In this document: in pieces, positions 54,001 to 63,000 of the stretch
How positions within the stretch are numbered: position 1 is the first letter of the stretch
Layout: each line of letters opens with the position of its first letter
Origin: Granulicella sp.
GTDB lineage: Bacteria > Acidobacteriota > Terriglobia > Terriglobales > Acidobacteriaceae
Direction of reading: 5' to 3'
Length of the DNA stretch: 64,000 nt
NCBI GenBank assembly: GCA_027339965.1
Contig: DAHWNL010000009.1
Location: forward strand, 29,733 to 93,732
Position numbers: made by a program

Positions 54001-57000
54001 AAATCCAGCGGCGGAACTGACCAGCTCAAACCTGCCGGCCTCCGCATAGCGAATCTCGAAGGCCCCCTGCGAGTCGGCATAATCCATGGCGACCACCTTG
54101 CTGCCCTGTACCAGCCGCACCAGAGTTCCCGGGACCGGCTTGCCCAGCGCATCGGTCACATGTCCGCGCACCACCACGGCCTTTGCGCCCGTGGAAAAAA
54201 GAACAACGATCAAGAGTGTCAAGGCGGCACGGCAAGCCATGTTGACGCGCCGATTGGACCCCATACCAAACAAAGTACGGCCCACGCGAAAATGCATACT
54301 GATCTCCTCCGCCCCCCCTTCGGGAGCGTGGTAGGCAAACGGCAGAGGAACCGGTCTCCTGACTGGCGCGATTTCAAGGTCAGCCCGTGACTTCACGAGA
54401 TCCACCCTTCCCAATGTCCGTTGGACGATCAGTGGGGGTCTCTGGGCCGGCCTCACCTTGCCCACTATGCCGCCTAACAAGCGTGCGGAAGGGTCAAGGT
54501 GCGCGCATCACAGTTGCGGGGCAGTGGCGGAGTCTCACCGCGCTTCCCGAACATTCCTTTGCGCTAGCGGAATAAAATCAACGCATTGCTCAGGTTGCCG
54601 GCAATGCAGAAACATCAAGCAAGCTGCTTCAACAGCAAAACCAGGGCCGCTCTCTCTCGATCGCAACCTCTTGCTCGGCGCCACCCAAAAGATGCGGCAA
54701 CCCAGGCGGAGGTCGAGAGAGGTTTCAGATGGCCTAGCTTTGCCTTTAGTCTACGGCATGGCATGAGGAAATCTCCAACCCAGCCGACCTTCGGCCGCCG
54801 CAGATCTCTATCTTCGCCGGCGCCTTACGGGATCATCGCCAGCACCTTACGGAATCATCAGCAATACCTTGCCCGAGGTCTTCCTTCCGGTGAGATCGAT
54901 ATGCGCCTGGCGGGCCTCCGCAAGCCGATAGGTCGCCCCCACCCGCACGTTCAGCGCACCGCTGGCCATCCATCCAAAGACATCCGCGGCTCGCCGCTCC
55001 AACTCACCCCGGGTGCGAACATAGTCCTTTAGCGTCGGACGGGTCAAATAGAGCGAGCCCGCCATCAGCCGGATCGGATCCAGCGCCGGGACAGCTCCGC
55101 TGGAGGCTCCAAAGAGCACCAGCAGGCCGCGCGGCCGAAGGCACTTCAACGAATCCTCAAAGGTTGTCCTTCCCACCGAGTCATACACCACCGGCAGGCC
55201 ATCGCCATCCGTCTGCCGCTTGACCACCTCAGCAAAGCTCTCCACGGTGTAAAGGATGACCTTGTCTGCGCCGGCCGCCAGCGACAGCTCCGCCTTTTGC
55301 TGCGAGGAGACCGTGGTCAGCACCCGCGCTCCCAGCCGCTTGGCCATCTGGGTCAGGAGTAACCCCACGCCGCCGGCTCCGGCATGGATCAGCACCGTCT
55401 CTCCCGCCTGGATGGCATGGGTATCGTGAGCCAGATAGTGCGCCGTCAGCCCCTGCAACAGGCAGGCAGCCGCCTGAACGCTGCTCATGCCTGTGGGCAC
55501 CTTCAGAAGCTGCTCGGTCGGCGCGCAGGCAAACTCTGCATACGTCCCCCGATTCCCATTCCAGGCCACTCGGTCGCCCACAGCAAAACCGCTCACCCCA
55601 GGACCCAACTCGGCCACGGTGCCGGCCGCCTCCTGCCCGGGGACGAAGGGCAGCTCCGCCGGATATCGCCCCTCCCGTAGATAGACGTCGATAAAGTTCA
55701 CACCCGAGACTTCGATCTTGACCAGAACCTGCCCCGCTGCCGGGCTGGGCACAGGAAGCTCCACCAGTTGCATCGCCTCGGGGCCGCCGGTCTTCCGTAT
55801 TTGTATGGCTTTCATCGTCTCCACCCTGCTCGATCGCCCGATAGCGAACTCAGGGCAACCGGATGCCTCAAACTATCTCCCGAAGAACAATAGCGCACGA
55901 CGCGGTCCATCGACTAGGGGATATCGGCAGCAGGGACATGCCAGAATGGGGCGATCCAAGTCGCGCGGTCAAGTTCCGGTGCTGAGATCAGCGGCATGGT
56001 CCAGAACCAGGCCGGCAGCGAGGCCGGGATGGCAGCAAGCCGGGATGGCAGCAAGCCGGCGGTAGCCCTCCTGAACCGCAGAGTCGGATCCTCCGCGATC
56101 CGGCAGCTCTTGTCGCCCTGCGATTGAAACACAGTCCTGCACAATCGAAGACACTTGCCCATGCGCCGCGCAGCAGCTTCGCGCTCGTCTTTACTGTCCC
56201 AAGCCGGCCACGGTAGACTACAAGAAAATTTCCTCCGAAAGTGGCCGTGTTTCTTAGAGGTAAAGCCTTTGTGTGGGATAGTCGGATTTACCGCGAAAAA
56301 CTGGCGCCCTGACCCGGAACTCATCCATAGGGCTACCGCGACATTGCTGCATCGCGGGCCCGATCAGCAAGGTGTCTTCCAGTCGACCAACTGCTTCCTC
56401 GGAGCGGCCCGTCTCAAGATCCTGGATCTCGCCACAGGCGATCAACCCATCTTTTCTGAAGACCGCGATACTGTCATTGTCTTCAACGGCGAAATCTATA
56501 ACCATAGCGAGCTGCGTAAGACCCTGGAAGCGTGCGGACACAGCTTCCAAACCCATTGCGACACCGAAACCGTACTCCATGCCTTCCTCGAATGGGGTAC
56601 CGGCTGCTTTGAGAAGCTGCGCGGAATGTTCGCTGTCGCCCTCTGGTCCAACTCGCGGCAAACCCTGACTCTGGCTCGCGATCGCATTGGCATCAAACCG
56701 CTGTATATCGCGCAGCGCGGCGAGGATCTCTACTTTGCCTCTGAACTGAAGGGTATCCTGGCGCATCCCGAGATCGAACGGTGCCTGAGCCTGGAAGCCC
56801 TCGACGCCTACCTCTCGGTCAACTACATTCCATCTCCATGGACCATGGTGGATGGTATCGAGAAGCTGCCCCCGGGCCATTGGCTCGAGTGGCGCGATGG
56901 CCGTGCCAGTCAACACTGCTACTGGCGGATACCCCCCGCCACGCCCGCGCCACTCTCATTTGAAGATGCGCAAGCCCAGCTCGACCTTCTTCTCCGCCAG

Positions 57001-60000: not shown

Positions 60001-63000
60001 TCGCTCCACCGGGGCCGGACGCCGGGCCGGCTCGCCGACCTGAAGTTACCTCCGGGCAACTCTCTCCGCAGATCCGGGTTAGTGAAGGAAGTACAACCCG
60101 GCCAGAAAGTCGAACTCGTCTGGAAGCCGCGGAACAGGCGGCCAGCCAGCTTTTGTGAAAGTTTTGTCAACTTTATCTGAAGAGCTCGCGTCTCTACGTA
60201 AAAATATCCGCACGATACAATAAGCTTCTGCGCAAGATTAACCTCTATAAGGCACGACCTGGAGTCAGAATGAGAATTGCCATACTCGGTGGCGATGGTT
60301 ACTGTGGATGGGCCACTGCCCTCTACCTTTCCAGCAAAGGACATTCGGTTGCGATTGTCGATAACTTTTCCCGCCGCCTGTGGGACTTTGAACTGGGTGT
60401 CGAAACCCTTACCCCTATTCGCTCACTGCCCGAACGTCTCTCGGCGTGGCAGCAGCTCACCGGCAGAACCATGGAGACCTATGTTGGGGATCTTGCCGAT
60501 TATGACTTCCTGGCCAGCATGATCCAGTCTTTCGAGCCCGAGGCCGTCGTTCATTTCGCGGAACAGCGCTCCGCCCCATACTCCATGATCGACCGGAAGC
60601 ATGCCTTGTTCACCCAGATGAACAACGTTAGCGGAACCCTGAATCTGTTGTTCGCCATTCGCGAACTGGCCCCCGAGTGCCACATCGTAAAACTCGGAAC
60701 GATGGGCGAGTACGGCACGCCCAACATCGACATCGAAGAAGGCTACATCACGATTGAGCACAATGGTCGCCGTGACACGCTCCCATTCCCCATGCAGCCC
60801 GGCTCTTTCTACCACCTCTCCAAGGTGCATGATAGCCACAATATCCGGTTTGCCTGCAAGATATGGGGGGTTCGAGCCACGGATCTGAATCAGGGCGTCG
60901 TCTACGGCACGCTTACCGATGAAGTCCAACTCGACGAAGCCCTCATCAATCGCTTCGACTATGACGAGGTTTTCGGCACCGTTCTCAACCGCTTTTGCGC
61001 CCAGGCGGCCATTGGCTCACCTCTCACTGTCTACGGCAAGGGTGGGCAAACGCGCGGATTTCTGGATATCCGCGACACCGTGCGCTGCATCGAACTGGTC
61101 TGCCTGAACCCCGCGGCCCGCGGTGAGTTCCGCGTCTTCAACCAGTTTACCGAGCAGTTCTCCGTCATGGAACTTGCCCAGCTTATCAAGATGGTGGGTC
61201 GAGAGATGGGTTTGCACGTCGAAATCGAGCATCTGCCTCCGCCACGCGTCGAGTCTGAGTCGCATTACTACAATGCCAAGCACTCCAAACTGACGGACTT
61301 AGGTCTGCAACCCCATCTACTCTCTGACTCCCTGGTCAGTTCGCTGATCGAAGTGGCTCTGCGCTATCGTCATCGCATCAATCCCGCCTTCTTCACCCCG
61401 AAGGTGAATTGGCGCATGACCCGCAACGAGCGCAACACCGCGCTTGCCGTCACCCCGCAGTGAGATTCTGGAAAGCAACTGGTTCGCGGACCGCCGGCTG
61501 AATGGATTCCAGGCTGCGAAGAAGGCTGTAAGACAGGTTACGGAAGGAGCGGAAAGCGCCAAAACCGCTCCTTCCGGCCTATCCAACCGAACTGGAGAAA
61601 CTTCGCTCAAGCCGGCTTCACCGGCACAAGATTCCCGTCCACGATGTTGTACTTTTGTCCTCGCCAGGCAATCGATTTGCGGGTAAAGCTCATCAGCCAG
61701 ATGACCGTTGCCAGTGCGTCCCATGCTGGAATCAGAGGCAACTTTGCCCAGACGCCACGCTGTCGCAGGCCCAGCGAACCCACCAGCCATGTCAGCAGAC
61801 AGCGCACCACAAAATACCCGCCCAGGAACACCGCTGCCACTTCGGCTCTTGGATCCAAGGCGACCGCCGCCAGTGCCCAGGGTAAGCCGAGCGTAAACAC
61901 CAAGCCCGCATGGCCCCATGGCCTCATGTGCCGCATCACCGTCATCCAGCGCAGCCGCTTGAAGAACAATTCTCGAAACGAACTGTAATCGGGAACCGTC
62001 GAAATTGCGTAAGACAGCAGCACCACCTCGTAACCGCGCTCAGCGATCAACCTCCCCACCCAGAGGTCGTCCGCAGGCTTATTCTCGATGGACGAGTAAC
62101 TTGAAAACTCCTCCAGCCGGCTTCGCTTTGTGCAGATCGTTGGCCCCAACGCGAACTTCACCCCTTCCAACTGCCACGCAACCAGAATCCCGGGATAGAA
62201 ATCTGACAGCATTCCGACGTCTTGCAGCCGCTGCACTATCGTCACATCCTTCGTGGGCACGTAGAAGCACGTCACCGCGCCCACCTTCGCATCGGCCATG
62301 GGCGCAATCAGCCGCCGCAAGTACTCCGGCTCAACCCGCACATCACTGTCACTGATCACCAGATGTTCATGCGCCGCCTCTTCCACCAGCCGCGCCAGCT
62401 TGGCTACCTTGTCGTTGGTGGCAACCCGCCCGCTTCCCACCAGTATGCGGATCCGCGAGTCGGGAAAGTCCGTTTGTAATTGTTGGAGAACCGGATACGC
62501 CGAATCGTTCGTATCGCCCACGCAGAATACAATCTCATACTCCGGATAATCCTGCCGGCAAAAACTGGCAAAGTTCTCGTAGGCCTCAGGATCGAGCCCG
62601 CGCACCGGTTTTAGAACGCTGAGCGGGGGCAGAAACTCCGTCTCGAGCGGTTTTGCTTTCAGAAAGAACCGCAAACTGCTGAAGATTGCGATCCCGTAAT
62701 AGACAAACGGTATCGCGGCAATCAGGAGAAACACGAGTCGCATGGTGGAAATGGCTGGCAGAGCCGCTCTGTGGGTTTGAGAACTCCTCCACTGTACCAT
62801 ACCCGGCAAGCACCCCCGGCCGGAGTCATGCCCAAGCCAGGGCAATCGCACTTCGAATCGGGCGGAACCACCTTTGCCACGGCCCATGTTAGCTGCTGAC
62901 GTAAGGGGTTGTGAGGCATGAAGTTCCTTTCAGGGGGGATTTCACGTCGAGGCAAGAGACGCTGGATCAGCTGGGTGCCTGCTGGGAGGGTCTGGACGAT

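What a model noticed while it worked through the whole genome (the two positions that open the first line are those of the whole stretch)
56269..62887. UDP-sulfoquinovose synthase built into an ArnT/flippase envelope-modification locus
sqdB sits with an ArnT-type transferase, an HpnI-like GT2 and an AsnB-type amidotransferase, with no sulfolipid synthase (SqdX/SqdD) annotated in the genome. The grouping recurs in soil metagenomes, often with an ArnE/F-like EamA pair, predicting transfer of sulfoquinovose to a non-SQDG envelope acceptor (lipid A, hopanoid or glycan) in a non-phototroph.
Evidence so far: g2805 is 66% identical to plant SQD1. 4 of 60 family genomes and 0 of 48 other Granulicella have it. 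Of 57 metagenome loci longer than 6.5 kb (of 80, call 79), 44 hold the ArnT ortholog, 39 the HpnI-like GT, 33 both, 22 the EamA pair; 2 of the 4 family loci show the same trio. NCBIfam: HpnI 289 of 310 bits, ArnT E 5e-23. No Swiss-Prot SqdX-type hit in the genome. Paper searches found nothing relevant.
(Added by a program. Inside this text positions count along the whole contig: contig position 29,733 is position 1 of the stretch shown here. "Call 12" and the like, gene names such as g00115 and contig names such as C1 are that model's own, and its searches are not shown. The text may have been shortened before it was handed on; [...] marks where a part breaks off. The agent that wrote the report below was given it as the finding of a first reader that could run no searches.)

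Follow-up and report, generated by a model that had tools for sequence, protein, structure and literature searches.

The report
Acidobacterial sulfosugar lipid-glycosylation gene set
A group of soil Acidobacteria keeps the enzyme that makes the activated sulfonated sugar UDP-sulfoquinovose together with its own dedicated membrane glycosyltransferase, which points to an undescribed sulfonated membrane lipid, most likely a hopanoid, instead of the usual plant-type sulfolipid; this is predicted from sequence and not yet shown by experiment.

Summary
The four genes are real: asnB, arnT-like and sqdB on the + strand, and an HpnI/GT21-type glycosyltransferase (GT) facing them on the - strand. SqdB keeps SQD1's catalytic residues. 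The genome has no SqdX ortholog and no GT8. The tightest partner of sqdB is the GT. Its clade is in 50 of 401 genomes of the order, all 50 among the 62 with sqdB, also when unlinked. It is monophyletic (100/100) with clade-specific basic residues in the catalytic motifs. ArnT and AsnB are looser: the ArnT clade is in 40 genomes without sqdB, often beside asnB, and two module-bearing genomes gave no ArnT ortholog. The GT looks like an enzyme for lipid hydroxyls, while ArnT looks built for a polyprenyl-phosphate donor, so a simple Arn-type relay is the weaker reading. Best reading: sulfoquinovose is put on a membrane lipid, probably bacteriohopanepolyol, moved by an EamA pair (not in this window) and optionally tailored. 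The acceptor is untested. No paper on it came up in ten searches. The scan noted this module before in four other genomes.

The parts
56269..58182 (+). AsnB-type glutamine amidotransferase, 637 aa; accessory tailoring enzyme, substrate unknown
   Evidence: Pfam Asn_synthase/GATase_7, TIGR01536 469 bits; Cys2 in 104 of 104 aligned rows; 8 of 636 columns diagnostic for the sqdB-linked set, including R375 just after the SGEGADE-GGY segment
58179..60158 (+). ArnT-like GT-C membrane glycosyltransferase, 659 aa (about 590 aa conserved, tail not conserved)
   Evidence: Only PDB sequence hit 5ezm, E 3.5e-21; model pLDDT 86, Foldseek TM 0.75 to 5f15; equivalents of E84/K85, D158, K203, R270, Y345 kept
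60270..61463 (+). SqdB, UDP-sulfoquinovose synthase, 397 aa
   Evidence: 610 bits to Arabidopsis SQD1; T144, Y181, K185, H95, H182 in 124 of 124 and R100 in 118 of 124 aligned homologs; residue roles from PMC4388408 passages
61607..62743 (-). HpnI/GT21-type membrane glycosyltransferase, 378 aa, of a clade found only with sqdB; predicted sulfoquinovosyl transferase
   Evidence: TIGR03472 289 of 310 bits; significant PDB sequence hits only to ceramide glucosyltransferase, E 2.5e-26; clade 100/100; R231, K262, R263 invariant in 126 rows and absent or rare in paralogs; 50 of 50 genomes also hold sqdB

Best explanation
SqdB makes UDP-sulfoquinovose from UDP-glucose and sulfite (inferred from a strong SQD1 match with intact catalytic residues; about 0.9). 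The convergent GT21 is a specialised HpnI paralog that transfers sulfoquinovose, with inversion, to a hydroxyl of a membrane lipid at the cytoplasmic face (inferred; about 0.8 that it uses UDP-SQ). The likeliest acceptor is the polyol side chain of a bacteriohopanepolyol, giving a sulfoquinovosyl-hopanoid (inferred). A pair of half-size EamA proteins moves the charged product across the inner membrane (inferred from linkage only). AsnB, methyltransferases, a radical SAM enzyme and oxidoreductases found in some loci are optional tailoring steps. The ArnT-like enzyme works outside as a second arm: it takes a sugar from a polyprenyl-phosphate donor, probably made by the family's universal ArnC-like enzyme, and adds it to the flipped glycolipid or another envelope acceptor (weakly inferred). 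No step is shown biochemically.
For: GT clade implies sqdB: 50 of 50 in the order sample against a base rate of 62 of 401, patchy over 22 genera; G639 in the phylum sample holds both genes 7.5 Mb apart, while the 44-45% sister GTs in G409 and G414 have no sqdB; of 80 GT loci in GTDB, 64 hold sqdB in the locus and 11 of 12 checked others hold it elsewhere. Clade on a long stem, 100/100; 37 of 383 columns diagnostic against its nearest sisters, against 8 of 636 for AsnB and 1 for ArnT. New basic residues K262 and R263 sit in the (Q/R)xxRW motif and R231 five residues after the catalytic Asp. DxD, D226 and RW are kept as in ceramide glucosyltransferase; the fold is closer to hyaluronan/cellulose synthases (TM 0.55-0.65) than to GtrB/ArnC (0.35-0.37). 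Hopanoid link: nearest characterised family is HpnI; in 11 of 80 GT loci the module abuts hpnJ and a second EamA pair; in G000 a paralogous EamA pair follows hpnJ; shc in 50 of 50. Minimal loci with only EamA, GT and sqdB exist (L152, L157, L163). Two genomes with asnB-sqdB-GT-EamA gave no ArnT ortholog (best 38-39%).
Against: No biochemical test. shc is probably near-universal in this family, so 50 of 50 does not discriminate. The hpnJ adjacency comes mostly from one lineage and may be one event. At genome level the ArnT clade is in 49 of 50 GT genomes against 41 of 351 others, so ArnT is more than a bystander. PcManGT is a top fold match (TM 0.60, Z 23.7) and, as I recall it (paper not read), depends on dolichyl phosphate, so this fold does not exclude a lipid-phosphate acceptor. 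GT21 enzymes of rhizobia glycosylate diacylglycerol (PMC8231724). I had no model coordinates, so contact of R231/K262/R263 with the sulfonate is not shown. The GT falls below the HpnI cut-off, and G000 has a separate above-cut-off HpnI (361 bits). The role of AsnB is unexplained.
Confidence: 0.45

Rival explanations
1. Arn-type relay: the GT loads sulfoquinovose on undecaprenyl phosphate, the EamA pair flips it, and the ArnT-like enzyme transfers it to lipid A or another periplasmic acceptor.
For: ArnT clade in 49 of 50 GT genomes; 47 of the 48 best ArnT hits are in GT genomes. ArnT keeps the lipid-phosphate residues. Sister ArnTs sit beside either an ArnC-like GT2 (3 of 22 loci) or another HpnI-like clade (6 of 22), as if these filled one slot. 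L213 has sqdB-asnB-arnT-GT on one strand. LpxC and WaaA are present. PcManGT fold match.
Against: The GT keeps the catalytic Asp of hydroxyl-acceptor enzymes and is far from GtrB/ArnC in fold. ArnT shows almost no sqdB-specific columns. Two module genomes gave no ArnT ortholog (completeness not given). ArnC-like and GT21 genes occur together in one cluster (L100, L199), which suggests different jobs. An ArnC-like loader is in 71 of 71 genomes.
Confidence: 0.22
2. The GT is a third kind of sulfolipid synthase (beside SqdX, GT4, and SqdD, GT8) that makes a beta-linked SQ-diacylglycerol or an SQ headgroup on an iso-diabolic-acid lipid; hopanoids are not involved.
For: 44 of 50 GT genomes gave no SqdX-like match above 36% identity; no GT8 in G000; GT21 Pgt enzymes use diacylglycerol; the minimal core is sqdB + GT + EamA.
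Against: 5 of 50 GT genomes also keep an SqdX ortholog at 61-69%, which would be redundant. HpnI is the nearest family and hpnJ is adjacent in 11 loci. The lipid lists in the two strain papers read (passages) name no SQDG, but I did not check whether those strains carry the module.
Confidence: 0.2
3. The linkage is incidental, or SqdB feeds an exopolysaccharide or other glycan made by unlinked genes; the GT uses a common donor.
For: 10 of 60 sqdB loci in the family lie in polysaccharide clusters; SqdB is under the NF041015 cut-off.
Against: GT implies sqdB even when unlinked; module-type SqdB forms its own branch (SH-aLRT 95, quick tree); linkage survives in different gene orders in three orders.
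Confidence: 0.08
4. The GT makes sulfoquinovosyl-ceramide.
For: GT21 is the ceramide glucosyltransferase family; it is the only significant PDB sequence hit. A ceramidase-like membrane gene lies beside the EamA orthologs on C82.
Against: G000 has only two BioF/Kbl-family enzymes; one lies in the biotin operon and the other scores 274-398 bits on serine palmitoyltransferase models with cut-offs of 500-670.
Confidence: 0.03

Closest known systems
HpnI-HpnK-HpnJ composite hopanoid pathway (BHT N-acetylglucosamine to cyclitol ether; described in PMC12583986, passages)
   Same: GT of the same family and motifs; hpnJ adjacent in 11 of 80 GT loci; host makes hopanoids (shc).
   Different: Separate clade under the TIGR03472 cut-off, with K262/R263/R231; tied to sqdB; no hpnK beside it; EamA pair where the Burkholderiaceae clusters viewed have a lysylphosphatidylglycerol-synthase-domain gene; AsnB and ArnT-like partners.
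SqdB-SqdX / SQD1-SQD2 sulfolipid synthesis (PMC13436972, passages); SqdD route (recalled)
   Same: Same first enzyme and donor.
   Different: No SqdX ortholog or GT8 in G000; the partner is a GT21. The family's SqdX-linked SqdB proteins form a different branch.
Arn (ArnC, ArnE/ArnF, ArnT) lipid A aminoarabinose pathway
   Same: ArnT fold and donor-side residues; pair of half-size EamA proteins.
   Different: No ArnC in the module (3 of 140 loci); ArnT 81.5 of 567 bits; metal ligands H265/H267 are N/Q; anionic sugar; ArnT ortholog not found in two module genomes.
Agl3 of Sulfolobus acidocaldarius (UDP-SQ for N-glycans; PMC4388408, passages)
   Same: UDP-SQ used for a product other than SQDG.
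   Different: Archaeal protein glycosylation; here a bacterial lipid-type GT21 is the partner.
GT21 lipid glycosyltransferases: human ceramide glucosyltransferase (26qf) and rhizobial Pgt (PMC8231724, passages)
   Same: Family, motifs, lipid-hydroxyl chemistry.
   Different: Neutral UDP-hexose donors; no link to sqdB reported in what I read.

Membership tests
UDP-sulfoquinovose synthase (SQD1/SqdB) | Full-length match to SQD1 | tested here: met
   610 bits, E 1.7e-182, residues 2-383; next family 47 bits
UDP-sulfoquinovose synthase (SQD1/SqdB) | Catalytic Thr, Tyr, Lys and the His/Arg needed in Agl3 | tested here: met
   T144, Y181, K185, H95, R100 present
UDP-sulfoquinovose synthase (SQD1/SqdB) | NCBIfam NF041015 cut-off | tested here: not met
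   489.5 of 575 bits; outweighed by the direct SQD1 match
UDP-sulfoquinovose synthase (SQD1/SqdB) | Makes UDP-SQ from UDP-glucose and sulfite | not testable with these tools
   needs an assay
Canonical SQDG pathway | SqdX (GT4) or SqdD (GT8) ortholog in the genome | tested here: not met
   the SqdX query was an sqdB-adjacent GT4 from the family, named SqdX by context and recalled motif; genome 98.9% complete
HpnI | TIGR03472 cut-off | tested here: not met
   289.2 of 310 bits
HpnI | Groups with HpnI of hpnIJK clusters | tested here: not met
   five proteobacterial HpnI form their own clade, 100/99; three are annotated in hpnIJK clusters, two come from unannotated records
HpnI | Host makes bacteriohopanepolyols | tested here: inconclusive
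   shc over cut-off in 50 of 50; hpnJ present; hpnG/hpnH not searched
HpnI | Acceptor is BHT, donor UDP-GlcNAc | not testable with these tools
   needs an assay
GT21 / lipid-hydroxyl GT2 | DxD, catalytic Asp, (Q/R)xxRW and membrane helices | tested here: met
   D132, D134, D226, R265-W266; PF13506 115 bits
Polyprenyl-phosphate GT2 (ArnC/GtrB) | ArnC/GtrB sequence family and fold | tested here: not met
   no NF007986 hit; TM 0.35-0.37 to ArnC/GtrB; the PcManGT match keeps the activity open
ArnT | ArnT fold and donor-side residues | tested here: met
ArnT | NF009784 cut-off and arn operon context | tested here: not met
   81.5 of 567 bits; ArnC-like gene in 3 of 140 loci
ArnT | Acceptor is lipid A | not testable with these tools
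   LpxC and WaaA present, nothing more

The most novel reading that the evidence does not exclude
Terriglobia make a sulfoquinovosyl-hopanoid with a dedicated GT21, flip it with an EamA pair and extend it in the periplasm with an ArnT-like GT-C. The paralogous HpnI/EamA/ArnT sets of the class would then be a general route to large, very polar hopanoid glycosides, and could account for the acidobacterial hopanoids that resist solvent extraction (about ten times more recovered from whole cells than from extract in one strain; PMC5462960 section 9).
Probability: 0.2. Interest if true: 0.85.

Novelty: new variant of a known kind. Interest (0 to 1): 0.64.

Why it matters
Sulfoquinovose is treated as a product of phototroph SQDG and a few archaeal glycans (PMC13436972 and PMC4388408, passages; the first never mentions Acidobacteria). 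A GT21 that uses UDP-sulfoquinovose would be a third enzyme family for this donor. A sulfonated hopanoid would be a new lipid class and a possible biomarker for acid-soil Terriglobia (the GT clade is in 49 of 372 family genomes sampled). It gives a concrete mass target and genes for the open question of the large polar headgroups that keep acidobacterial hopanoids and membrane lipids from being extracted.

Tried and rejected
Serine palmitoyltransferase in G000: not found. SqdX and GT8 in G000: not found. HpnK in G000: one match under the cut-off, 184 of 233 bits. Promoter/terminator scan: 0 promoters and 1 terminator, below the shuffle means, uninformative. ARAGORN found no tRNA in the window; the tRNA-Leu piece is a 61-base match to the full gene on C17. 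AsnB turning the sulfonate into a sulfonamide: considered and set aside, because the same AsnB family works without sqdB and sulfonate is a poor substrate for adenylation (own knowledge). Horizontal island: the four genes are 57-60% GC against 59-65% for five upstream genes and 60.8% for the genome, and 0 of 22 same-genus genomes have sqdB, the GT or the ArnT clade; suggestive only. Tree: one module AsnB (L056_12411) was mislabelled as outgroup by a script slip, so its group counts are off by one; only the topology is used. Literature: ten searches; those aimed at the finding were sulfoquinovose+Acidobacteria, sulfoquinovose/sqdB/glycosyltransferase/LPS/hopanoid, sulfoquinovosyl+bacteriohopane, UDP-SQ synthase/N-glycan/Agl3, and Acidobacteria/SQDG/intact polar lipids. 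None listed a paper on this module. The library lacks most subscription journals, and no supplements were read. The PcManGT paper and a paper on the ceramide glucosyltransferase structure were not found. Complex prediction was not used: no binding claim is made.
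Full report
Observation. The window holds asnB (56269-58182), an ArnT-like GT-C (58179-60158, its TTG overlapping the asnB stop) and sqdB (60270-61463) on the + strand, and an HpnI/GT21-type glycosyltransferase (GT, 61607-62743) on the - strand, facing sqdB. SqdB matches Arabidopsis SQD1 at 610 bits. It keeps the Thr, Tyr and Lys named as catalytic and the His and Arg needed in Agl3 (PMC4388408, two passages). It is under the NF041015 cut-off (489.5 of 575). G000 gave no SqdX ortholog and no GT8. The EamA pair is not in the window; its orthologs lie at the end of contig C82 with a methyltransferase that is part of the module in four relatives.

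Distribution. One sample of 401 genomes of the order was searched three times. sqdB is in 62, the GT clade in 50 (E<=1e-95, with a clear gap below 55% identity) and the ArnT clade in 90. All 50 GT genomes have sqdB; 49 have the ArnT clade (the 50th, G288, has it in two pieces); 40 ArnT genomes lack sqdB. The 12 sqdB genomes without the GT are 4 with only an sqdB-SqdX pair, 6 with sqdB in polysaccharide clusters, one at a contig end and one alone. Kin are not independent, but presence is patchy inside genera (1 of 45, 3 of 62, 4 of 53). In 301 genomes of the phylum the GT clade appears only in G000 and G639, both with sqdB; three weaker matches (38-45%) have none. 64 of 80 loci hold sqdB, 64 an EamA gene, 50 asnB, 45 arnT, 11 hpnJ. 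Of the 16 without sqdB, 12 were checked genome-wide and 11 have it elsewhere; four short loci were not checked. Some genomes may appear in both locus sets.

The GT is the specialised gene. It forms one clade (100/100, stem 0.72, 30 of 126 rows in the tree) inside the HpnI-like family, apart from five proteobacterial HpnI proteins and from the two other paralogs of G000. Against its 16 nearest sister rows, 37 of 383 columns are diagnostic. These include K262 and R263 in the (Q/R)xxRW motif, where paralogs mostly have His followed by Gln, Arg or Glu, and R231, five residues after the catalytic Asp. Extra positive charge in the catalytic motifs is what a sulfonated donor would ask for, but contact is inferred, as I had no coordinates. 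By the same rule AsnB has 8 diagnostic columns of 636 and ArnT one; a near miss in ArnT is Q260, His in 20 of 22 sisters.

What the GT accepts. It keeps DxD, D226 and RW as in human ceramide glucosyltransferase, its only significant PDB sequence hit. The model (pLDDT 89) resembles hyaluronan and cellulose synthases and PcManGT (TM 0.55-0.65; Z 24.9 and 23.7) more than GtrB or ArnC (TM 0.35-0.37). That favours a lipid hydroxyl. PcManGT, recalled as dolichyl-phosphate dependent, keeps a lipid-phosphate acceptor possible. Ceramide is unlikely without serine palmitoyltransferase. Diacylglycerol has precedent in GT21 (PMC8231724, passages), but 5 of 50 GT genomes keep SqdX as well. Hopanoid is favoured by the HpnI relationship, by the position of the module between hpnJ with one EamA pair and a sister GT with another in Acidiferrales-type loci, and by hpnJ followed by an EamA pair in G000. 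shc is in 50 of 50, which does not discriminate. PMC5462960 (passages and section 9) reports hpnI and hpnJ without hpnK in subdivision 1 and 3 Acidobacteria, and about tenfold more hopanoid from whole cells than from extract in one strain.

ArnT and AsnB. The GT-C has the ArnT fold (TM 0.75) and keeps equivalents of E84/K85, D158, K203, R270 and Y345. PMC7801869 (passages) ties K85 and Y345 to the lipid phosphate and D158-K203 to the acceptor. It should therefore use a polyprenyl-phosphate sugar, which a lipid O-glycoside is not. An ArnC-like loader is present in 71 of 71 genomes tested, with or without the module. Of 22 ArnT loci fetched from the 40 sqdB-negative genomes, 13 have asnB directly upstream, 6 another HpnI-like clade and 3 an ArnC-like gene (in one locus my gene caller missed ArnT). 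In 18 loci inspected asnB abuts sqdB with no arnT between (these were picked because arnT looked absent). For four such genomes the ortholog lies elsewhere (G096, G276, G371; G690), and for two it was not found (completeness unknown). Against my reading, ArnT follows the GT closely at genome level in this order (49 of 50 against 41 of 351), and L213 has all four genes on one strand. Most sqdB-linked AsnBs form one branch that also holds G071, which has no sqdB; three fall outside it. R375 marks that branch. The AsnB substrate is unexplained; a uronic acid on the lipid or on the ArnT donor is my guess from known AsnB-type sugar amidotransferases (recalled).

Mechanism. SqdB makes UDP-SQ; the GT puts SQ on a membrane lipid hydroxyl, most likely a bacteriohopanepolyol; the EamA pair moves it; AsnB and others tailor; ArnT adds a sugar from a separate donor (0.45). 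Rivals: Arn-type relay (0.22), third sulfolipid synthase (0.2), incidental linkage (0.08), ceramide (0.03). All steps are inferred.

Novelty. Every part belongs to a known family. The pairing of SqdB with a dedicated GT21 was not found in the paper searches listed under Tried and rejected, in a library that lacks most subscription journals. The scan's own notes describe the same module in four other genomes; they are unchecked and not counted as support. One of them already favoured a hopanoid acceptor. Verdict: real, conserved, undescribed in what I could search, mechanism open; new variant of a known kind, interest 0.64.

Noticed in passing
window 63508-63568: 3' part of tRNA-Leu(TAA), 97% identical to the full gene on contig C17; looks like an attachment-site remnant of an integrated element, 270 bases of shared repeat and the contig end follow.
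   Followed up: partly
window 62836-63330 and G000 C82:95582-96103: N-terminal ISAs1 remnant beside the GT, and a C-terminal remnant of the same IS family beside the EamA orthologs on C82; both match different parts of a copy on C47. The module may have been split by rearrangement.
   Followed up: partly
L096:7799-13156 (G000 C82): Core ArnC-like GT2 followed by a ceramidase-like membrane gene, a Trm112-fused methyltransferase, an unknown 326-aa gene and the EamA pair; the last four have atypical codon scores.
   Followed up: partly
L091:9212-16078 (G000 C34): Above-cut-off HpnI convergent with an ArnT paralog, next to two MacB-type permeases; a MacB-type permease also flanks about 20 of 60 sqdB loci. 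The same layout without sqdB.
   Followed up: partly
L102-L104, L107, L116, L136: Another HpnI-like clade directly downstream of a sister ArnT, no sqdB: a parallel module with an unknown sugar.
   Followed up: partly
L105, L109-L115, L117, L118, L137-L139: asnB-arnT two-gene unit with no sugar-nucleotide gene nearby, widespread in the family; substrate and acceptor unknown.
   Followed up: partly
L078, L079, L081-L083: Adjacent sqdB and SqdX-type GT4 in five Acidobacteriaceae genomes: predicted ordinary SQDG synthesis in non-phototrophs.
   Followed up: partly
L073-L075, L080, L084-L089: sqdB inside exopolysaccharide or capsule clusters (Wzx-like, GT2/GT4, DegT, sugar transferase): predicted sulfoquinovose-containing polysaccharides.
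   Followed up: no
L181:9233-11015 and about 20 other GT loci: An FAD-dependent oxidoreductase and a 254-aa gene with no NCBIfam match follow the GT on its strand; some loci have a SPASM radical SAM gene or a membrane-anchored methyltransferase between arnT and sqdB.
   Followed up: no
L161: GT clade member in a record titled Nevskia soli, with no sqdB found in that genome: the one exception among 12 checked, possibly a binning or naming problem.
   Followed up: no
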